Of a DNA stretch of 64,000 nucleotides, positions 57,189 to 64,000 are shown one piece after another. Under the pieces are notes generated by a model. The model did not search any database and had not been told where the DNA came from. It saw nothing but the letters and a program-made list of their open reading frames with translations. Position numbers and translations under genes: made by a program. The stretch's first letter is position 1. The number at the start of each line of letters is the position of its first letter. The DNA comes from a phage: sequence record PV805632.1; one strand, 5' to 3'.

Positions 57189-58799
57189 TCACACAATGTA
57201 TGAACGTAGTGGGTTAACACTATCTTCTTCTTCCTCATCCCACATTGGGTCACCCTTGTTATCCACCAAAGTCATACCTGCTTGTGGTTTCCAAGGATTG
57301 AGATAACCCAGCATGGAGATAGTATCAATACAGTCATCCTTACCTTTAATTCCATTAATGGTAGCTAGTTTAATCTGGCCCATGAACAGACCCATAATAG
57401 TTGTATCTCTCAACTCTTCCGGGAAGTACATCTTACCAGCTTTGAACCATGGAACTACCAGGTTGAAACGTGACAGTTTAGAGGTTACAGGACGGATGCC
57501 TGGCTTACCACCCTCAGAGGATGCAAAGTTAAAGAAGACATTACGGTTAATCATTTCTTTCTGAAGGAGTGAAATGAATCCACCCTGCTGTCCTGTAATT
57601 TCAACACCAACGTTTTGTGGTTGGTATTCCTGAACCAGACGGAACAAGTCGTCGAAGTTCTTATCCATAAGCTGACGATTAGCCACACCATCAACCCAGA
57701 ACCAATCTCCATTAGAACTGTAAGCCCAAACTGATATGACACTATAGTCACTAGTCTGTTTCTCCGAAGTAGCAAAGTCAGTTGTAATGTAATAGTTATA
57801 GCAAGACTTCATCCTTAACAATTGCTGCCTGCTATACCATTTAATCTCACTATCCTGAACAAGACGTTCATCTTCAGAACTAATACGAAGCATAAGTTCC
57901 TGGTAGAAGCCAGCCAACTTACCAGTCTTAACTGCCATGTCGTATTGGGCTTTAATGTAGTCATACGAGAAACGGTCATCCCATGCACCTTGAAACTCTT
58001 CTCTACTACAAGGGAACTTCTCACACACAGGCCATACGTTGACATCCCATGCACCGGACTCTACTGCTTCAATGATAATGTCTTCCTTATTAAAGGGAGT
58101 ACCATTGAAAATTACTTTACGACGTGTTGGGTCAAGAGCATGGTTCACACCTTTATAGACAGTATCCTTAATAGCTTCCATGCTTGTCTTAGAGTTAGCA
58201 TCACCATCACTAATCAAGTCATCCAGTACACATAGTGTCGGACGTTTACCGTATATCTTCGTACCACGAAGACCAGTCTTGGCACCAAACAGTTTAACCC
58301 CTAGGCGATGACCTTCTGCATTACGAAACTCTAACAGGTTATCTGTAAAAATAGCTTCGGGTATCCACTGCTGAAGGAACTCACTATTCTTGTATCGGAA
58401 CTCAATGTTCTTACGTGCAGACTTAGCACCGTTATCCATTGAGTCAGATACGTAAATCATTCCTTCTACTTTACCAAGACTTGGTAAATGCCCAAACACT
58501 GCCAAGAACAAAGTAAAGTATTCCATGAACACAGCAGTCTTACCTGCACCACGGAAACACAGGTTAACTACATACTGATTCGGGGTAATCATCTTATCCA
58601 ACATCTTCAGGTGAACTGGGGGTGTTTTGTTGGATTCACCCTCTTTACCATTAACCAACTTAATAAAGTTGGCAAAGGTAAGAGCAAACTGACTAGGAAC
58701 ATAGTTAGATGAATTAAGGTGGGAGTAATCCACCTGGTCTAGCCATTCATCTAGTTCCTGTTTAATTAACTCAGACATCTGTAATGTCCTCATCTGCAC
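57189..58799 (-). CDS. terL: terminase large subunit
   Basis: Walker A GAGKTAVFM, Walker B-like LCVLDDLISD, C-terminal nuclease-like region; 536 aa. Confidence 0.85.
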   Translation of the reverse strand: MQMRTLQMSELIKQELDEWLDQVDYSHLNSSNYVPSQFALTFANFIKLVNGKEGESNKTPPVHLKMLDKMITPNQYVVNLCFRGAGKTAVFMEYFTLFLAVFGHLPSLGKVEGMIYVSDSMDNGAKSARKNIEFRYKNSEFLQQWIPEAIFTDNLLEFRNAEGHRLGVKLFGAKTGLRGTKIYGKRPTLCVLDDLISDGDANSKTSMEAIKDTVYKGVNHALDPTRRKVIFNGTPFNKEDIIIEAVESGAWDVNVWPVCEKFPCSREEFQGAWDDRFSYDYIKAQYDMAVKTGKLAGFYQELMLRISSEDERLVQDSEIKWYSRQQLLRMKSCYNYYITTDFATSEKQTSDYSVISVWAYSSNGDWFWVDGVANRQLMDKNFDDLFRLVQEYQPQNVGVEITGQQGGFISLLQKEMINRNVFFNFASSEGGKPGIRPVTSKLSRFNLVVPWFKAGKMYFPEELRDTTIMGLFMGQIKLATINGIKGKDDCIDTISMLGYLNPWKPQAGMTLVDNKGDPMWDEEEEDSVNPLRSYIV

Positions 58800-59460
58800 G
58801 TACTAGTTTAGAACCAGCAATCTCTTTAGTAGGTACACCACTATTGATTGCATTAATTTGCTGTTCAGCCAATGCAGCAAGCGTTGCCTTGAGGTCAGTC
58901 AACCCAGAGTTTTCTCTTAAGTCCAGATTGATATTCGTTACCTGATCTTTCGGTTTAGCTAAGTGGGTAAGGATAGAGTTAGCTGCATCACATCTTACCT
59001 TCTCACTTACCGCTGTAGTCATCAGTTCAACCTGAACATTGATTGCCTTCTGATAGTTGTCTTGGTTCACAATCCACACCGGAACCAAACTTTGTTCCAT
59101 GATGAGGTTAACTAACTTACCTCTGTGATAAGCAGATACGTAAGCACTAATATCTTTCTCACTGGTTCCTCGAGCTACAAGTTCTGCTTGTCGGTTAGGG
59201 AATGTTTTGAAGTAGGCTTCCTTATTTGAATAGCCCATGTGTTTGTAAGTCACATACTGAACTGCATTCATGTAGTCCTGTGTCTTAAACTTACCCTCCT
59301 TCATAACACCAGAGTAAGAGATGAAGTTTTCACGGAATGCTTCAGCAACCAGTTGGTCTTGGGTTATGTTGTTAATCGTGTCTACCAACTCCTGGCTTAC
59401 ACTGTTCTTGAAGTTAGCAGGTAAGGCATTAATGATCTGCTGCTTAGTTAGCTCTCTCAT
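58771..59460 (-). CDS. hypothetical protein upstream of terL (possible small terminase subunit)
   Basis: 229-aa ORF overlapping the terL start; positional guess only. Confidence 0.35.
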   Translation of the reverse strand: MRELTKQQIINALPANFKNSVSQELVDTINNITQDQLVAEAFRENFISYSGVMKEGKFKTQDYMNAVQYVTYKHMGYSNKEAYFKTFPNRQAELVARGTSEKDISAYVSAYHRGKLVNLIMEQSLVPVWIVNQDNYQKAINVQVELMTTAVSEKVRCDAANSILTHLAKPKDQVTNINLDLRENSGLTDLKATLAALAEQQINAINSGVPTKEIAGSKLVRADEDITDV

Positions 59461-59631
59461 ACTTATCTCTCTACAAAGTTATGTCTATTATCGAAGATTC
59501 TTTTCTTGGGGTGGGATACCCCTTGAAGAAACTCTAACACACAGTTACACTTTAGTCATGATATAGAAAAAGTTCATGATACTAAATAGTATGTAATGTT
59601 CCGATGACCCTATCCCCAAAAGGAGTAACCT

Positions 59632-59922
59632 TTGAGAATCTATATGAGAGTCATCGACTCTAAAGACGAATACTCAGAGATAGACCATACCAAAGCTGGC
59701 TTTATGGCTGGTGACATAATCCTTACCCATGACGAAGATACATTCCATGAGTTATCTGGAATGATGCTATTAGAGAACCGTCCTGGTATTACCATCTTAG
59801 AACCGCAAGAAACTTACTCTTTAGAAAAGTCTATTCCATCTCTTGTGTTCTTCACAAAATTACCTCATAGTGTCCCCATCAAACGAAGCAAAGATAGCGT
59901 TCGGATGACGGTGATGATGTGA
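59632..59922 (+). CDS. small early protein, member 1 of a tandem paralog family
   Basis: TTG start with AAGGAG 7 nt upstream; shares the motif DEDTFHELSGMMLLEN...ILEP with the next three ORFs. Confidence 0.4.
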   Translation: MRIYMRVIDSKDEYSEIDHTKAGFMAGDIILTHDEDTFHELSGMMLLENRPGITILEPQETYSLEKSIPSLVFFTKLPHSVPIKRSKDSVRMTVMM

Positions 59923-60071
59923 TTAGTCATACCGCCTAGTAGACAGTGGCGGTACTCGTAAAGAGTTAATAACTTCTACAGTCAGGGTTCCCCGGCTCCT
60001 TTCCTACTCCGTAGGTCTAACGGTACATAAGTACCTAGGGGGGTGAACTGACCCGTGATTGAAAACGGTAA

Positions 60072-60108
60072 GGGGTAGGGTCGAGAGGCTCTACCCCATT
60101 TCTTTTTC
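60072..60108 (+). terminator. rho-independent terminator-like hairpin
   Basis: GGGGTAG...CTACCCC stem followed by ATTTCTTTTTCT. Confidence 0.45.
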
Positions 60109-60123
60109 TGGAGGCATGCAATT

Positions 60124-60522
60124 ATGAGCATCTACGCTTTTGATATTGATATTACTGGAGTACTCCGTAAACAGGAACCCTATTACCTTGGGGAACCAGA
60201 AGTAGTAAGTAAGTTCACTGCCCCGTCACAATCAGTATTCTTACCAGATTGCGAAGAGTCCCATGAAGTAATTGGTTCTCTTTTTTTATCCAACCTTCAA
60301 CTTAACACTGTGATATTGTCTGAACCAAGGGTGTATGACCTTACCTATTATGATGGGTTTAACGAGTTCTTCCCCGGCATACGCTTCTATAAGATAGATG
60401 GTTGGGAATTGATAGCTGACCATAACGTCTTTAATAAAACACTTTCCATTTACTTCAGACCTATTCCTAAAGGAAGGAAAATCAATCATGAAATTCATAA
60501 TGACTATCCCCAGTTTTGCTGA
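60124..60522 (+). CDS. small early protein, paralog family member 2
   Basis: motif CEESHEVIGSLFLSN...VILSEP. Confidence 0.45.
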   Translation: MSIYAFDIDITGVLRKQEPYYLGEPEVVSKFTAPSQSVFLPDCEESHEVIGSLFLSNLQLNTVILSEPRVYDLTYYDGFNEFFPGIRFYKIDGWELIADHNVFNKTLSIYFRPIPKGRKINHEIHNDYPQFC

Positions 60523-60802
60523 AAATGAATCCATGTACACAACTGACTTCACTTTAGAAGAGGTCATGAACAGCAACCCTCATCAAGTAATCCTGGTTCC
60601 TACTTTAGAGGATTATCACGAAGTAAGGGGTCAGTTATTCTTAGCAGGCAATGACCGTAAGGTTGTATGCATTATCCCACCTTCTGTCTATACCAACTAT
60701 AACGCTAATGACCCCATACCGTACATGCTGGTATCCGATGAATACCAATGGGGGAGTCGTTACGAGAATGGTGAATATCATTACTACTATGTAAGGAAGT
60801 AG
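60488..60802 (+). CDS. small early protein, paralog family member 3
   Basis: motif LEDYHEVRGQLFLAGN...CIIPPSVY aligns with member 2. Confidence 0.45.
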   Translation: MKFIMTIPSFAENESMYTTDFTLEEVMNSNPHQVILVPTLEDYHEVRGQLFLAGNDRKVVCIIPPSVYTNYNANDPIPYMLVSDEYQWGSRYENGEYHYYYVRK

Positions 60803-60805
60803 GGT

Positions 60806-61102
60806 ATGCACCTGTACTGCCTGATTAGCTATGCCACTACCTGTTATCTATCCCCGTATACAATGGATAATATCCTGGCAGGTAAGGGGAGTGTTGCCAC
60901 CATCCTATATGAACCAAGTGAAGAAGCAGAAGTATTCCTGGGTACTTGCTTAATACTGGGGCAACCTATCCAGTTCATTAAGATAGTGGATTCTGTGGAA
61001 ATACCGGAGCACACCTGTGTGTACATACTGTCTGATAAAGAACCTATGGTAGCTACTACTCTTACAGGTAGACTCATTACCCGAAAGCTCCCTCCTATTT
61101 AA
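60806..61102 (+). CDS. small early protein, paralog family member 4 (more diverged)
   Basis: motif SEEAEVFLGTCLILGQ. Confidence 0.4.
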   Translation: MHLYCLISYATTCYLSPYTMDNILAGKGSVATILYEPSEEAEVFLGTCLILGQPIQFIKIVDSVEIPEHTCVYILSDKEPMVATTLTGRLITRKLPPI

Positions 61103-61128
61103 CTGCTTATAAGTGAGATAGCTATAAT
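61099..61128 (+). promoter_or_regulatory. candidate sigma70-type promoter
   Basis: TTAACT (61099-61104), 18-bp spacer, TATAAT (61123-61128); by-eye match only. Confidence 0.3.
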
Positions 61129-61206
61129 ATTTTTGCATGTCAAAAATGTGATAGTTATGTATGGCTACAGTGGTGTGGCTAGGGCTACACCCTTACACGT
61201 TAACTA

Positions 61207-61220
61207 CCCCCCCCCCCCCC
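61207..61220. repeat. homopolymeric poly-C tract (14 nt)
   Basis: CCCCCCCCCCCCCC read directly from the sequence. Confidence 0.9.
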
Positions 61221-61326
61221 GGTATGTTGACTCATGGGTGTACTACCCTACCCCACCTTACACGTTACACGTTGCTCCGCAACTTATGGACATGTCGTCC
61301 TATCATCAACTATTGGAGCTATCATC

Positions 61327-61650
61327 ATGACTACTACCGCTACTGTACGTATGACCGCAGGAACTCTGCTGGGTACTGTTAACTCTGCTGCTACTACTGT
61401 TGCAGATTCATTCGGTGCTGCTACTAAAGCAGTTGGTATGCTTAATTCTTACGTAGCTACTATGGCAAAGAAACAAGCCATTCGTACTAAATTAGAAATG
61501 CATACTTTCGAAAACAAATTAGCTGAAGAAACAGCTATGAACGAGACTATGCGTAAGAAAAGTATCGAAGAATTCTGCAAAGATCCAGAAAACGCTCGTA
61601 TCTACAACGCAGAATATTCAAGAATAATTGACATCCTGTCTAAAGACTAA
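61327..61650 (+). CDS. hypothetical protein
   Basis: ATG 61327 with GGAG 8 nt upstream; the longer track ORFs run through the poly-C tract. Confidence 0.45.
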   Translation: MTTTATVRMTAGTLLGTVNSAATTVADSFGAATKAVGMLNSYVATMAKKQAIRTKLEMHTFENKLAEETAMNETMRKKSIEEFCKDPENARIYNAEYSRIIDILSKD

Positions 61651-61653
61651 ATC

Positions 61654-61680
61654 AATAGGAGGCTCTTCGAGCCTCCTATT
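61654..61680. promoter_or_regulatory. perfect 12-bp stem / 3-nt loop hairpin (terminator or hairpin-type promoter)
   Basis: AATAGGAGGCTC-TTC-GAGCCTCCTATT immediately after a stop codon; no U-tract. Confidence 0.5.
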
Positions 61681-61740
61681 AAGGGCATTAGATAGATAGA
61701 TAGTCAGTTCTGTATAAAAAGATAGGAGAGATACCTACTA

Positions 61741-61886
61741 TGAGCAAACTAAAAAACGCATTCATGCTGATTGTCAGTGTCCTTGCACTTGTTGCTATGG
61801 TTTCCGTATACATTGGAAAACCTCTGGTAAACACTGACTATGGTCATGGTCAGAAAGTAAAATCCATCCTGCTAATGGATAAGTAA
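61741..61886 (+). CDS. hypothetical small membrane protein (48 aa)
   Basis: hand-translated; single hydrophobic helix FMLIVSVLALVAMVSVYI. Confidence 0.3.
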
Positions 61887-62070
61887 AATGTCCCTGAATC
61901 TAAATCACCGTAAGAATCTCTGGATATCTTACATACCCTAAAAGACAACGACGCTCCGCGTCTTATGGATGATGTAAATGCATCCACTAATCATTGAAAT
62001 TTTATCCTTTTGTTTGGGTGTTCTCACCGACGAGTTCACCCGTAAATCACATAAATCTGGAGAGTACAAA

Positions 62071-62454
62071 ATGTCTATTCAAAAATTCACTTTCGGTCAA
62101 TCTAACGCTGCTGCTACTTCTACTGCTAAAACTGATAAACCAAAAGCTCAGTTCTGGCTGAACATTGGTTATGTAGCTAATGAAGGCTCTGATGATGAGA
62201 AATTCATCTCGCTGCCTACTGGTATTCCACTGGATACTCAGGAACCACTGCCAACTAACAGCAGCAATGCTGACTTCCGTGCTATGCGTTGTGCACAGAA
62301 CGATTTGTTAGAACAGTTAATCGAATATGCTCAGAACCTGAAACCAGGTGAAGAAGGCATCATTAACCTGCAAGTTCAACTTCGTCGTGTGAAAGCAGAG
62401 GCTGCTGACATCCCAGCAGACGAGAATAAATATGCTCGTAAACTGACTTTCTAA
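62071..62454 (+). CDS. hypothetical protein
   Basis: ATG 62071 with GGAGAG RBS; the track start at 61978 lacks an RBS. Confidence 0.45.
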
Positions 62455-62463
62455 TCAACCACT

Positions 62464-62492
62464 GGACTCCCTTCGGGGAGTCTTTTATTTTT
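62464..62492 (+). terminator. rho-independent terminator
   Basis: GGACTCCC-TTCG-GGGAGTC followed by TTTTATTTTT. Confidence 0.65.
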
Positions 62493-62597
62493 AACTCAGC
62501 GATAAACTAAGTTTAACTTTTAGGGGCTTTTCGACGAAGAGTCACTAAAACTTAAACGTAAACAGAAGCAGATAACTTAGAGTAAGGAGTAATCAAG

Positions 62598-62897
62598 ATG
62601 CGTACACTATGTAACCGTTATAATCCAACCGGACTGATTAACATCATGGCCTTATATGGTAGCAAAATGACTTATGGTGCTCGTTGGCAAGTGTCTGTAG
62701 AAGACAAGAATGGCAAATGTCATGACCACTACTTCGTAGCTAAGCCTACTCGTAAACAAATCCGTAAACTTCACAAAGTACGTAAGCATTACTTACTAAG
62801 TAAATGCTACGAATGTGGCAAAAGGATAGAACTAGGTAAAGAATTTACTTTTGATGATCTCAACTATGCTCACAATAACTGCTTAGGAACTAAATAA
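62598..62897 (+). CDS. hypothetical protein with Cys/His cluster (possible zinc ribbon)
   Basis: CHDH ... CYECGK ... HNNC. Confidence 0.4.
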   Translation: MRTLCNRYNPTGLINIMALYGSKMTYGARWQVSVEDKNGKCHDHYFVAKPTRKQIRKLHKVRKHYLLSKCYECGKRIELGKEFTFDDLNYAHNNCLGTK

Positions 62898-62898
62898 A

Positions 62899-63303
62899 AT
62901 GACTACTCATAAAATTGTAAAAAGCTGGACTACTGAAGCTGGTTTATCTGCTGTAATCCTGCTAGTAAATGATGGTTCTCACCATTGTGGTTACGTAGCA
63001 TTGCCTGCTGATTTAGCAGACAAAGACTTTATTAATTATGATCCAGAAGAATCCATTTCTGTTCATGGTGGTGTTACCTATCAAGATGCACTTCCTCAAT
63101 TAGAGGATAAAATCGCTATCGGTTTTGATTGTGCTCATCACGGTGACCTCATGAAATGCCCTGAGAAGTACAAAGGTACTCCTCTGGAAGGACTGCGCAT
63201 GTATTCAGAAGGTGTATGGCGAGATGAGCAATATTGCACCAATGAGTGTGAGTCTATGGCTAAACAACTAATGGCAATGTTGCCTAAACAACTAGAAGGA
63301 TAA
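62899..63303 (+). CDS. hypothetical protein with His-rich motifs (possible metal-binding)
   Basis: GSHHCGY ... CAHHGD. Confidence 0.4.
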   Translation: MTTHKIVKSWTTEAGLSAVILLVNDGSHHCGYVALPADLADKDFINYDPEESISVHGGVTYQDALPQLEDKIAIGFDCAHHGDLMKCPEKYKGTPLEGLRMYSEGVWRDEQYCTNECESMAKQLMAMLPKQLEG

Positions 63304-63307
63304 TGCT

Positions 63308-63460
63308 ATGAAGCTACTAGCAGAGATTCTGTGTATTTTATTAATGATACTGCTGGTAGCTGCATTTCCGTGGCTATTAGCCGTAGGCATTATTATTGGT
63401 ATGCTCGTAGCCGGAGCGAGTGATGCTCGTGGCAGAGATGAGCCAGGTGGAGATGTGTAA
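63308..63460 (+). CDS. small hydrophobic membrane peptide (50 aa)
   Basis: hand-translated MKLLAEILCILLMILLVAAFPWLLAVGIIIGMLVAGASDARGRDEPGGDV. Confidence 0.35.
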   Translation: MKLLAEILCILLMILLVAAFPWLLAVGIIIGMLVAGASDARGRDEPGGDV

Positions 63461-63658
63461 ACACTGCCAGAAGAGTATGTACGGGGGAACCAGTGATATT
63501 CACTAACATTGAGGATGCCATTGAAGAATGTATCTTCCGTAGATATCACACTGGAGTACAGAAACGACACTATGGTGTTGTGCAACTCAATGGCTATCAA
63601 ATGGCTGTAAGAATTGTACGTAACAATAAACCTTTTAACTTTATGTGGAGTACTAAAC

Positions 63659-63787
63659 ATGCGTAAGTCATTAATCATGGGAACCAAAGCTGACGTACAA
63701 AAGATGAAAGAGCGTCTGGCTGCTAAGCAACAGGCATCTGAACCAGTACGTAAGATTGTTACCTTCAATCATCCGTGCATCAAATAG
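63659..63787 (+). CDS. hypothetical small protein (42 aa)
   Basis: hand-translated ORF ending just before a strong terminator. Confidence 0.3.
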   Translation: MRKSLIMGTKADVQKMKERLAAKQQASEPVRKIVTFNHPCIK

Positions 63788-63789
63788 TA

Positions 63790-63821
63790 AGGAGTCCTCC
63801 AATAGGAGGCTCCTATTTTTT
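63790..63821 (+). terminator. rho-independent terminator
   Basis: AGGAGTCCTCC-AATA-GGAGGCTCCT (1-nt bulge) followed by TTTTTTATTTTT. Confidence 0.65.
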
Positions 63822-64000
63822 ATTTTTGAATAGTTAGATATGTATTTAAATAGGAGAAAGAACCTTGAATGAAATAGTATGCATACTTCCACACTTAGCT
63901 AAAGTAGCTGATAGGAATATACGGATACATTTACCCTTCCCATTAAGTAACCCATTCACTCGTAATGAAAGAACCACAGTAGAGGATATAGAGGTAGCTT

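What the first reader, a model, noticed from the sequence alone, without database searches (positions are those of the whole stretch)
59632..61102. Tandem array of four diverged paralogous small early genes
Four consecutive plus-strand ORFs (96, 132, 104, 98 aa) share an alignable core: DEDTFHELSGMMLLEN..ILEP / CEESHEVIGSLFLSN..VILSEP / LEDYHEVRGQLFLAGN..CIIPP / SEEAEVFLGTCLILGQ. Members 2 and 3 are clearly related; 1 and 4 are more diverged. Tandem diversifying duplication of small early genes is typical of host-takeover or anti-defence loci. No function can be read from the sequence.
Basis: seen in the sequence. Interest (0 to 1): 0.5.

Follow-up and report, generated by a model that had tools for sequence, protein, structure and literature searches.

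The report
Paralogous small-gene array, N4-like phage end
Four neighbouring small genes of a G7C/N4-like coliphage are real, distantly related copies of one uncharacterised protein fold found only in N4-like phages, but they lie at the last-injected end of the genome and are probably not 'early' genes.

Summary
The window is a permuted assembly of a G7C-like N4-type coliphage. The four ORFs are G7C gp70, gp71, gp71.1 and gp71.2.

Sequence evidence:
- O2-O3 are related beyond shuffles (z=9); O1-O3 is marginal; O4 matches nothing pairwise.
- Families present in relatives but missing here (C5, C6) bridge all four.
- Leave-one-family-out profile comparison gives P about 1e-8 for O1, O2 and O3, and 3e-4 for O4 (z=7.3 against column shuffles).

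Structure evidence:
- AlphaFold models of O3 (pLDDT 87) and O4 (pLDDT 81) have the same order of elements.

The array is dynamic: relatives carry 5-6 members, and this phage and G7C carry 4 after a deletion that fused gene 4 to the end of the last gene.

The 'early' reading is not supported. The genes lie next to the right terminal repeat. The N4-type hairpin promoters lie downstream, in front of the gp1 and gp2 homologues. A sigma-70-like promoter conserved across genera precedes O1.

Between O1 and O2 lies a structured element with covariation, ending in a terminator and conserved across two subfamilies.

Function is untested. The most likely role is accessory host-binding or counter-defence proteins.

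The parts
59523..59551 (+). Candidate sigma-70-type promoter for O1: TTGAAG, 17 nt, TACACT
   Evidence: Both hexamers are invariant in 15 Gamaleyavirus-like loci while the spacer between them varies. The same layout occurs at the same place in N4 (TTGCAG-17-TAGACT), Klebsiella phage JZBo1 (TTGAAG-17-TAGACT) and Achromobacter phage JWDelta (TTGATA-17-TAGACT). It scores 8/12, below the 9/12 threshold of the generic scan. Its function is inferred.
59632..59922 (+). O1, 96 aa; orthologue of G7C gp70 and N4 gp70 (phrog_7213); family member 1
   Evidence: The TTG start with AAGGAG 5-7 nt upstream is conserved in all relatives; the annotated ATG at 59644 has no ribosome-binding site at a usable distance. 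Family against the rest: P 2e-8, z 20.9.
59931..59953 (+). Hairpin P1 just after the O1 stop codon (ACCGCC, 11 nt, GGCGGT)
   Evidence: All 6 pairs are kept in 9 sequences. N4 has CCCGCC...GGCGGG at the same place.
59966..60108 (+). Conserved structured spacer element: 5' UUAAUAAC-CUACAG, a three-way junction with two 5-bp hairpins (60003-60015, 60021-60034), an unpaired CUCCUU, a small hairpin, and an intrinsic terminator (60072-60097) followed by a U-run
   Evidence: Nucleotide identity of about 95-100% among Gamaleyaviruses, although the flanking genes diverge. 98.2% of cells paired; 7 pairs with compensatory change against 2.3 in shuffles (0/500). A covariance model built from Gamaleyavirus-like spacers only (seven Gamaleyavirus loci plus the divergent contig L011) finds the equivalent spacer in JWDelta, JZBo1, N4 and contig L013 (E about 1e-8 to 1e-5). 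Terminator scan. No Rfam or tRNA match.
60124..60522 (+). O2, 132 aa; orthologue of G7C gp71 and N4 gp71 (phrog_9160); family member 2; first gene of a tight O2-O3-O4 operon
   Evidence: GGAGG lies 9 nt upstream of the ATG. Family against the rest: P 6e-8, z 21. The O3 and O4 models both match the BFVD model of the 121-aa OLB145 protein, inferred from its length to be of the N4 gp71 type.
60488..60802 (+). O3, 104 aa; G7C gp71.1 (phrog_11661); family member 3; overlaps the end of O2 by 35 nt
   Evidence: AlphaFold2 gives pLDDT 87.2 and pTM 0.80, with the order b-b-a-b-a-b-b-b-b-b. Family against the rest: P 4e-8.
60806..61102 (+). O4, 98 aa; G7C gp71.2 (phrog_12099); family member 4; a chimera of residues 1-92 of the 'gene 4' type plus 6 codons from the end of the last array gene
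   Evidence: AlphaFold2 gives pLDDT 80.8 with the same order of elements as O3. Foldseek retrieves the independent model of the O3 orthologue (TM 0.61-0.64) and the C5, C6 and gp71-type proteins. Family against the rest: P 3e-4, z 7.3.
61076..61091 (+). Deletion joint that removed the distal array genes (C5, C6 and C8 types) present in most relatives
   Evidence: Window sequence up to about 61082 matches gene 4 of relatives. From about 61076-61091 onward it matches the 3' end of their last array gene, 0.6-1.3 kb further on. The microhomology is AT(T/C)ACCC. Among 59 GenBank matches only G7C is colinear in one piece.
61271..61283 (+). N4-type virion-RNA-polymerase promoter hairpin (GTTGC TCC GCAAC, then TTATGGA) in front of the gp1 homologue (61327-61650)
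   Evidence: 5-bp stem. On the template strand the loop is GGA (-11G, -10G), -8 is G and +1 is C, matching the determinants listed in PMC4496689. The downstream gene carries PF26891 Phage_N4_Gp1 in relatives. It lies inside the terminal repeat, which starts at about 61180 by the G7C annotation.
61950..61962 (+). Second N4-type early promoter hairpin (GACGC TCC GCGTC, then TTATGGATG) in front of the gp2 homologue (62071-62454)
   Evidence: From memory, the layout matches N4 promoter P2 (GAAGC GGA GCTTC on the template strand, then ..TTGGATG). The downstream gene carries PF26984 Phage_N4_Gp2 in relatives.
58771..59460 (-). gp69 homologue (phrog_2109; weak match to terminase small subunit), the conserved divergent neighbour used as a rate control
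   Evidence: 97-100% amino-acid identity among the Gamaleyavirus loci; dN/dS 0.03.

Best explanation
The four ORFs are real genes: G7C gp70, gp71, gp71.1 and gp71.2. They are ancient tandem paralogues of one small (about 100 aa), acidic, cytoplasmic alpha/beta domain. The conserved core is a strand, then an acidic loop, then a helix containing an invariant Gly, then a strand.

The family is confined to N4-like phages (Schitoviridae). It forms the accessory module between the packaging genes and the right terminal repeat. It has no strictly conserved polar residues, so the proteins most likely act by binding rather than catalysis.

My best guess is that each paralogue binds a different host protein, or a protein of a competing phage. 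That would make them counter-defence or host-modulation factors. The set changes by recombination between the similar 3' ends of the genes.

Likely expression:
- The genes are not transcribed by the virion polymerase at the start of infection.
- O1 is read from a conserved sigma-70-type promoter.
- O2-O4 form a tight operon behind a conserved structured leader that ends in an intrinsic terminator, so their level probably depends on read-through.

What is shown: gene reality, homology, shared predicted fold, restriction to Schitoviridae, fast evolution, copy-number change with a mapped joint, right-end position, absence of an N4-type early promoter, and conservation of the promoter-like motif and of the structured spacer.

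What is inferred: time of expression, read-through control, a binding function, and the target.
For: Identity and position:
- 97% nucleotide identity to G7C; the ORFs are gp70-gp71.2, next to 'contains terminal repeat'.
- The gp1 and gp2 homologues follow the array.

Homology:
-.
- PHROG cross-hits through phrog_16338 (the C6 family) and phrog_12606 (the C5 family).

Fold:
- The O3 and O4 models have the same topology.
- Both retrieve the same set of small proteins of Gamaleyavirus, an Enquatrovirus (OLB145), Klebsiella phage KP8, Achromobacter phages and Pseudomonas phage Zuri, and essentially nothing else.

Restriction: only 16 true representatives among 1.84 billion cluster representatives.

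No enzyme signature:
- A single invariant Gly.
- No Pfam, NCBIfam or PDB sequence match.

Fast evolution under constraint: dN 0.10-0.32 against 0.007 for gp69; dN/dS 0.16-0.28.

Copy-number dynamics. Family members also occur in the right-end arrays of JZBo1 (4) and JWDelta (2-4).

Acidic proteins: pI 4.7-5.5.

Not early:
-.
- In the N4-like phage LUZ7 the right-end ORFan cluster is covered by middle-stage transcripts (PMC9163698).

Promoter motif.

Leader and terminator.
Against: - No experiment or annotated relative bears on function. Counter-defence is an argument from pattern only: fast evolution, accessory location and variable copy number.
- dN/dS is below 1, so there is no direct sign of positive selection.
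- The O1 and O2 types are kept from N4 to Achromobacter phages. That fits a conserved phage-internal role at least as well as an arms race.
- O4 is linked by sequence only at P 3e-4 (probability 38%).
- The alignment behind the O4 model contained 11 O1-O3 family sequences out of 43, which could bias its fold towards theirs. Against that, the BFVD models it matches were made independently.
- The promoter candidate is weak (8/12) and unverified.
- The terminator may simply end the O1 transcript, with O2-O4 read from an unrecognised promoter.
Confidence: 0.45

Rival explanations
1. One reading: the four are early genes, transcribed by the injected virion RNA polymerase together with the neighbouring early genes, and they act in immediate host takeover.
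For: They have the same orientation as the gp1 and gp2 early genes and lie directly upstream of them in this assembly. A 5-bp-stem hairpin with a TCC loop lies between O1 and O2 at 60003-60015. It is one of only three such hairpins in the 64 kb, all on the plus strand and within 2 kb of each other.
Against: - In the packaged DNA the array lies at the right end, upstream of the right terminal repeat.
- N4 injects the left end first, and its hairpin promoters are confined there (PMC4496689).
- The hairpin at 60003-60015 has A at -8 and T at +1 on the template strand, where G and C are required.
- Its loop changes to CTA, CCA or TACT in relatives while the stem covaries. That is the behaviour of a structural hairpin, not of a promoter read through its loop bases.
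- An intrinsic terminator follows it before O2.
- No such hairpin precedes O1.
Confidence: 0.1
2. The family serves the phage's own DNA metabolism at the genome end, for example replication of the termini, formation of the terminal repeat or control of packaging, rather than interaction with the host.
For: - The array lies between the terminase genes and the terminal repeat in every genome examined.
- The O1 and O2 types and the spacer element are conserved across two subfamilies.
- For LUZ7 the authors suggest that the middle-stage right-end cluster may relate to replication (PMC9163698).
Against: - Copy number ranges from 1 to 6 among close relatives, and whole members are lost without loss of viability.
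- The rate of amino-acid change is far above that of the adjacent packaging gene.
- No nucleic-acid-binding or nuclease signature was found, and the proteins are acidic.
- No family member was found by sequence in Pseudomonas DEV or Erwinia S6, which share the same genome ends and packaging genes.
Confidence: 0.2
3. O4, or the whole resemblance, is chance or compositional similarity between unrelated small ORFs.
For: O4 has no pairwise signal against O1-O3. Its best single family link (C4-C5) is P 8.5e-4 among 45 comparisons. Its hhalign probability against the rest is only 38%.
Against: - O4 scores z=7.3 against column-shuffled controls, with 0 of 40 reaching the observed score, and the alignment spans nearly the full length in the common register.
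- Its secondary-structure order is the same as that of O3.
- Its model hits independent models of the O3 orthologue and of the C5, C6, gp71-type and KP8 proteins.
- For O1-O3 the statistics are strong (P about 1e-8).
Confidence: 0.07

Closest known systems
Coliphage N4 gp70 and gp71 (YP_950548, YP_950549), uncharacterised right-end proteins
   Same: They are orthologues of O1 and O2. They occupy the same position after gp69, with the same spacer of about 200 nt ending in a terminator, and the same core motif.
   Different: N4 has only these two members, plus a 42-aa gp72. The window has four and most Gamaleyaviruses have five or six. I found no function reported for them in the papers searched.
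Right-end ORFan cluster of Pseudomonas phage LUZ7 (gp87-gp115)
   Same: It is a block of small genes of unknown function directly upstream of the right terminal repeat of an N4-like phage. It lies on the same strand as the early and middle genes and differs between related phages (PMC3715699). It is transcribed at the middle stage (PMC9163698).
   Different: I did not test LUZ7 itself for sequence relationship. The related phage DEV has no family member by profile search. Only Pseudomonas phage Zuri proteins match, weakly and by fold. No paralogy has been described for the LUZ7 cluster.
Fast-evolving accessory or counter-defence gene clusters of virulent phages (for example the accessory regions of Silas et al., bioRxiv 10.1101/2023.04.06.535777)
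   Same: Small, fast-evolving, uncharacterised genes in a hypervariable region bounded by conserved genes, with changes in gene content between close relatives.
   Different: No member of this family has been tested, and that preprint does not mention N4-like phages. Here the region is filled mainly by paralogues of one fold rather than by unrelated genes.
Terminator-containing leader RNAs (riboswitch-type or attenuator leaders; the HK022 put antitermination RNA), as an analogue for the spacer element
   Same: A structured domain immediately upstream of an intrinsic terminator and of the first gene of an operon, with covariation.
   Different: There is no match to any Rfam family. No ligand, alternative pairing or antitermination activity is known. 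It could equally be a separate small RNA or the 3' end of the O1 message.

Membership tests
One homologous superfamily comprising O1-O4 | Profile-profile similarity above shuffled and unrelated controls, in a common register | tested here: met
   O1, O2 and O3 families P 2e-8 to 6e-8; O4 family P 3e-4, z 7.3, with 0 of 40 shuffles reaching the observed score. Unrelated controls gave P>=0.07. The common register has one invariant Gly. O4 is the weakest member.
One homologous superfamily comprising O1-O4 | Same three-dimensional fold | tested here: met
   Tested for O3 and O4 only. Their models have the same order of elements. Each retrieves the other's family and the C5, C6 and gp71-type proteins in BFVD. 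O1 and O2 were not modelled here. The O2 type is represented by the OLB145 121-aa hit, whose identity as an N4 gp71-type protein is inferred from its length. All of this rests on predicted, not solved, structures.
N4-type early genes (transcribed by the virion RNA polymerase) | Location in the left-end region that is injected first | tested here: not met
   The ORFs are G7C gp70-gp71.2, upstream of the right terminal repeat. The rule for N4 comes from PMC4496689.
N4-type early genes (transcribed by the virion RNA polymerase) | Upstream hairpin promoter: 5-7 bp stem, 3-nt loop, with -11 purine, -10G, -8G and +1C on the template strand | tested here: not met
   There is no such hairpin upstream of O1. 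The hairpin at 60003-60015 fails at -8 and +1, and its loop is not conserved. Two hairpins that meet all determinants lie at 61271 and 61950, downstream of the array.
N4-type early genes (transcribed by the virion RNA polymerase) | Rifampicin-resistant transcription in the first minutes of infection | not testable with these tools
   This needs a time course of RNA from infected cells.
Phage anti-defence (counter-defence) proteins | Demonstrated inhibition of a host defence system, or homology to a protein with that activity | not testable with these tools
   There is no annotated relative: all six PHROGs are 'unknown function', and there is no Pfam, NCBIfam or PDB match. No anti-defence library was available to search.
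RecA-like / SF2 helicase domain | Significant structural match and conserved helicase motifs | tested here: not met
Intrinsic (factor-independent) terminator, for 60072-60107 | G+C-rich hairpin directly followed by a U-run on the transcribed strand | tested here: met
   11-bp stem with 7 G-C pairs and a 4-nt loop, followed by ATTTCTTTTT. Four stem pairs show compensatory change in the divergent contig L011. Equivalent terminators occur in N4, JZBo1 and JWDelta; the JWDelta one is annotated in its GenBank record.
Any described RNA family (Rfam 15), for the spacer element | Covariance-model match | tested here: not met
   No match at E<=1 in 59000-64000 on either strand. No tRNA or tmRNA.

The most novel reading that the evidence does not exclude
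The right-end module could be a regulated counter-defence cassette specific to N4-like phages. In that reading, the proteins are a family with a fold not yet seen in solved structures, and its paralogues each neutralise a different host immunity protein. Their dosage would be set by a previously undescribed cis-acting structured RNA (the Y-shaped domain with an unpaired CUCCUU, followed by the terminator) that gates read-through from the host-polymerase-driven O1 transcript into the O2-O4 operon.
Probability: 0.15. Interest if true: 0.7.

Novelty: new member of a known kind. Interest (0 to 1): 0.4.

Why it matters
The result joins six PHROG families of 'unknown function' (7213, 9160, 11661, 12099, 16338, 12606), together with N4 gp70 and gp71, into one superfamily. 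That superfamily is specific to Schitoviridae and has a confidently predicted fold with no close solved relative.

It also shows that the right end of these genomes is a recombining array of paralogues. This gives a defined, small set of candidates for genetic tests of host range or counter-defence in N4-like phages, several of which are used as therapeutic candidates. The candidates are gp70 to gp71.2 and the extra members in relatives.

The result corrects a tempting misreading: that these are early genes because they adjoin gp1 and gp2 in permuted assemblies.

The conserved structured spacer and the conserved sigma-70-type promoter are testable regulatory elements in a phage group whose middle and late transcription signals are poorly defined.

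Tried and rejected
- Pfam, NCBIfam, PDB sequence search and Rfam gave nothing.
- The word-indexed protein search with the superfamily alignment listed only the best 120 hits. These were almost all O3 and O1 orthologues, so it added little.
- The exhaustive profile search found 17 representatives. One of them (P0141, 941 aa) is a low-complexity false positive.
- I considered that the TCC-loop hairpin at 60003-60015 was a third early promoter. I rejected this on the -8 and +1 determinants and on the non-conserved loop.
- I considered that the conserved 5' motif of the spacer (TTAATAAC..CTACAG) was a recurring middle promoter. It occurs once in the window, and near-matches are at chance level: 11 found against 8.8 expected.
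- An exact-motif scan of viral contigs for the spacer (CCCGTGATNGAAAACGGT) returned only the known Gamaleyavirus contigs and two unrelated chance matches.
- The C8 family, interleaved in relatives' arrays, is not a member of the superfamily: P>=0.1 against all families, and it carries an HExxH motif.
- Literature searches for N4 gp70-72, for G7C, for small RNAs in N4-like phages and for Gamaleyavirus counter-defence found no functional data. One search was too broad to be useful.
- The supplementary tables of transcription start sites for LUZ7 were not available.
O1 and O2 were not modelled because only two prediction jobs were allowed.
Full report
WHAT THE WINDOW IS

The 2-kb region is 97% identical to Escherichia phage vB_EcoP_G7C, a Gamaleyavirus in the family Schitoviridae, that is, an N4-like podophage. 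It is 84-89% identical to more than 50 other Gamaleyaviruses.

In the G7C record the four ORFs are gp70, gp71, gp71.1 and gp71.2, all 'hypothetical'. They lie after the leftward genes gp68 (terminase) and gp69, and directly before a feature labelled 'contains terminal repeat'. By offset, that repeat starts at about window position 61180.

Downstream of the array the window continues into homologues of N4 gp1 (61327-61650) and gp2 (62071-62454). In a relative these carry PF26891 and PF26984. The window is therefore an assembly that runs from the right end of the genome, through the terminal repeat, into the left end.

THE OBSERVATION

All four ORFs exist as described. Three lines show they are genes:
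- Each has a ribosome-binding site.
- dN/dS is 0.16-0.28 over 13-14 relatives.
- O3 and O4 give confident AlphaFold models.

AAGGAG lies 5-7 nt upstream of the TTG in every relative, despite indels in between.

IS THE SIMILARITY MORE THAN CHANCE?

Single sequences, local alignment, 2000 shuffles:
- O2-O3: z=9.0, p<5e-4.
- O1-O3: z=3.9, p=0.0055.
- O1-O2: z=1.6, though aligned in the same register.
- O4: no signal against any of the others.

PHROG profiles already hinted at links. O1 and O3 both hit phrog_16338, and O2 and O3 hit each other's families weakly.

The decisive evidence came from relatives. I took 16 distinct loci and clustered all plus-strand ORFs between gp69 and the terminal repeat. 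Most Gamaleyaviruses carry two further families in the array that the window lacks: C5 (phrog_12606) and C6 (phrog_16338).

Family-against-family hhalign:
- C0(O1)-C6: P 1e-6.
- C3(O3)-C6: P 1.5e-6.
- C2(O2)-C3: P 1e-5.
- C0-C5: P 9e-5.
- C4(O4)-C5: P 8.5e-4.
- Four unrelated neighbouring families: never below P 0.07.

A joint alignment of 36 sequences from seven families, including N4 gp70 and gp71 and an Achromobacter-phage member, places all of them in one register. It has a single invariant Gly and the consensus LxPxxExxHExxGxxLLxN...LxP, and the proteins are colinear from the N-terminal strand to the C-terminal strand.

Leave-one-family-out hhalign, compared with 40 column-shuffled versions of each family:

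| Family | Score | Null mean +- sd | P |
|---|---|---|---|
| O1 | 48.4 | 10.2 +- 1.8 | 2e-8 |
| O2 | 46.8 | 10.8 +- 1.7 | 6e-8 |
| O3 | 46.0 | 10.7 +- 2.0 | 4e-8 |
| O4 | 26.5 | 10.6 +- 2.2 (largest 16.8) | 3e-4 |

O4 is the weakest.

STRUCTURE

AlphaFold2 on O3, with 43 family and paralogue sequences, gave pLDDT 87.2 and pTM 0.80. The order of elements is b1 b2 a1 b3 a2 b4 b5 b6 b7 b8. The conserved motif corresponds to b3, the loop after it, a2 and b4.

O4 gave pLDDT 80.8 and pTM 0.72, with the same order of elements. One caveat applies: 11 of the 43 rows in its alignment were O1-O3 family sequences.

Foldseek against BFVD, a library of independently predicted viral structures, was informative. 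The O3 model matched, at E<=1e-3, only small uncharacterised proteins of N4-like phages:
- its own orthologue in EC1-UPM;
- C6-type proteins of PhAPEC7 and PhAPEC5;
- the 121-aa OLB145 protein, which I take to be of the N4 gp71 type from its length;
- several different proteins of Klebsiella phage KP8 (four within the listed hits, three of them at E<=1e-3);
- proteins of Achromobacter phages.
Weaker matches (E about 0.01-0.7) included the C5-type protein of IME11 and four proteins of Pseudomonas phage Zuri.

The O4 model retrieved largely the same set. This included the EC1-UPM O3 orthologue (E 3e-3, TM 0.61-0.64), OLB145, IME11 (C5 type) and PhAPEC5 (C6 type). This supports O4 as a member of the family.

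DISTRIBUTION

An exhaustive HMMER search of 1.84 billion cluster representatives, using a profile of O1-O4, found 17 proteins at E<=1e-3. One of them is a low-complexity artefact. The family is therefore very narrow.

Profile scanning of right-end regions found:
- 2 members in N4;
- 4 in Klebsiella phage JZBo1;
- 2 clear and 2 marginal in Achromobacter phage JWDelta;
- 2 or more in Achromobacter phage Axy10;
- none in Pseudomonas DEV or Erwinia S6.

The layout is the same in N4, JZBo1, JWDelta and the Gamaleyaviruses: gp69, then an O1-type gene, then a spacer of 200-250 nt with a terminator, then further members, then the terminal repeat.

DYNAMICS

Among the Gamaleyavirus loci gp69 is 97-100% identical at the protein level. 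O1, O2, O3 and O4 are 74-98%, 78-96%, 73-95% and 51-99% identical. Median dN is 0.10-0.32 against 0.007 for gp69, and dN/dS is 0.16-0.28 against 0.03. This is relaxed constraint and fast change, but not dN/dS above 1.

Counting family members only, close relatives carry 5-6, the window and G7C carry 4, and one divergent contig (L011) carries 1 plus a pseudogene remnant.

The window's O4 is a chimera. Up to about 61082 it matches gene 4 of relatives. From about 61076-61091 onward it matches the last codons of their final array gene, 0.6-1.3 kb further on, joined at the microhomology AT(T/C)ACCC. G7C has a closely similar joint, read in another frame because of a 1-nt indel. Of 59 GenBank matches only G7C is colinear in a single piece.

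The paralogues are old: 10-25% identical, with the O1 and O2 types already distinct in N4.

ARE THEY EARLY GENES?

I scanned the whole window on both strands for perfect 5-7 bp stems with pyrimidine-rich 3-nt loops. Three have a TCC loop, and all three lie on the plus strand between 60003 and 61962.

Two of them, at 61271-61283 and 61950-61962, are followed by TTATGGA. On the template strand they read stem-GGA-stem with G at -8 and C at +1. These are the determinants listed for the N4 virion polymerase (PMC4496689). They sit in front of the gp1 and gp2 homologues.

The third, at 60003-60015 between O1 and O2, has A at -8 and T at +1. Its loop changes to CTA, CCA or TACT in relatives while the stem covaries. 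It is followed by an intrinsic terminator before O2.

The same review states that the hairpin promoters are confined to the left end, which is injected first. In LUZ7, an N4-like Pseudomonas phage, the cluster of small ORFans next to the right terminal repeat is covered by middle-stage transcripts (PMC9163698; PMC3715699).

Upstream of O1 there is a motif TTGAAG-17 nt-TACACT. Its hexamers are invariant and its spacer varies among 15 loci. The same layout recurs at the same position in N4, JZBo1 and JWDelta. This points to host sigma-70 polymerase, which in N4 carries out late transcription. This is an inference, since the motif scores only 8/12.

I conclude that 'early' is unlikely, at about 0.1.

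THE SPACER BETWEEN O1 AND O2

This stretch of about 200 nt is 95-100% identical among Gamaleyaviruses, although the genes on either side diverge. It contains:
- a hairpin just after the O1 stop codon;
- the conserved sequence UUAAUAAC..CUACAG;
- a three-way junction with two 5-bp hairpins;
- an unpaired CUCCUU;
- a small hairpin;
- an intrinsic terminator with a U-run ending 16 nt before the O2 start codon.

Support for the structure:
- RNAalifold predicts 60 pairs, 8 of them with compensatory changes.
- For the 43 pairs that I specified, 98.2% of cells pair. Seven pairs show changes on both sides, against 2.3 in shuffles (0/500). Slid controls pair at 36-46%.
- A covariance model built only from Gamaleyavirus-like spacers finds full-length matches in exactly the equivalent spacer of JWDelta (33 bits), JZBo1 (31 bits) and N4 (24 bits), and in an IMG/VR contig (34 bits). 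The E-values are rough, from about 6e-9 to 1.5e-5.
- Rfam and ARAGORN find nothing.
- The 5' motif is unique in the window.

I cannot tell whether this is a leader that controls read-through into O2-O4, a separate small RNA, or the 3' end of the O1 message.

FUNCTION

Nothing annotated is related to these proteins. They are acidic (pI 4.7-5.5) and I saw no obvious membrane-spanning segment by eye. They share only structural residues: hydrophobic strands, a Pro, an acidic helix cap and one Gly. His-Glu is present in five of the seven families but absent from O4 and C5. That argues against a common catalytic site.

Taken together with the fast evolution and the gain and loss of members, I favour binding proteins directed at host or competitor targets (about 0.35-0.4). 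A phage-internal role at the genome end is the main rival (about 0.2), and is more plausible for the widely conserved O1 and O2 types.

VERDICT

In terms of novelty this is a new member of a known kind, namely a fast-evolving accessory gene array of a phage. It is notable for a fold family not seen in solved structures and for a conserved structured spacer.

Noticed in passing
window 59931-60108 (+), between O1 and O2: A highly conserved structured element with compensatory base changes: a hairpin, a three-way junction, an unpaired CUCCUU, and an intrinsic terminator 16 nt before the O2 start codon. A covariance model built from Gamaleyavirus-like spacers finds it in the same spacer of N4, Klebsiella phage JZBo1 and Achromobacter phage JWDelta. 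It matches no Rfam family.
   Followed up: partly
window 61271-61283 and 61950-61962 (+): Two hairpins that meet the promoter determinants of the N4 virion RNA polymerase, each followed by TTATGGA, in front of the gp1 and gp2 homologues. They show that the window runs from the right end of the genome, through the terminal repeat, into the left-end early region.
   Followed up: partly
window 59523-59551 (+): A sigma-70-like promoter candidate (TTGAAG-17-TACACT) upstream of O1. Its hexamers are invariant and its spacer varies. The same layout is present in N4, JZBo1 and JWDelta. Just upstream lies a conserved T-rich stretch followed by a hairpin (about 59501-59523, GGGGTGGGATACCCC), whose loop varies between genera.
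   Followed up: partly
window 61207-61220 (+), inside the terminal repeat: A run of 14 C, flanked by copies of CTTACACGTTA, close to the predicted left end of the genome and upstream of the first early promoter. Its role is unknown, and it is a likely source of length errors in assemblies.
   Followed up: no
window 61118-61158: An 18-nt imperfect inverted repeat (ATAGCTATAATATTTTTG / CAAAAATGTGATAGTTAT) between the end of the array and the start of the terminal repeat. It overlaps the best sigma-70-like match in the region (TTAACT-18-TATAAT, 61099-61128). The array-end sequence CCTCCTATTTAACTGCTTATAAGTGA is shared by all relatives and is read in two different frames as the C-terminus of the last gene.
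   Followed up: partly
relatives' arrays, e.g. L003, L006, L008, L009, L011, L023 and L026 (cluster C8; in the gp69-anchored sub-region of L003 used, positions 2058-2372): An unrelated 104-aa protein with an HExxH motif (TLIHEVNHF; phrog_1365, unknown function) is interleaved among the paralogues in many relatives. It is absent from the window.
   Followed up: partly
L043 (GenBank CP043865.1, Enterococcus faecium chromosome, 2698803-2711123): The fetched 12.3-kb stretch carries the same genes in the same order as the matching stretch of Gamaleyavirus PGN829.1 (L044), from the tail-fibre-like gene through the terminase, the array, gp1 and gp2 into the early region, and it lies inside a 2.76-Mb Enterococcus chromosome assembly. 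It is most likely assembly contamination rather than a prophage.
   Followed up: partly
L011 (IMG/VR contig 3300024308_000028), region after the spacer element: The O3-like gene behind the spacer (MLVQLVCRSDK...VILFT**) is interrupted by stop codons. This divergent relative keeps O1 and the structured spacer but has lost the rest of the array.
   Followed up: no
L026 (OY979416.1, Klebsiella phage vB_Kpl_K57alpha1.2): The deposited annotation over this region (DNA polymerase, exonuclease, primase; all flagged as pseudogenes) does not fit the sequence, which is the gp69-array region. The feature table appears to be shifted relative to the sequence.
   Followed up: no
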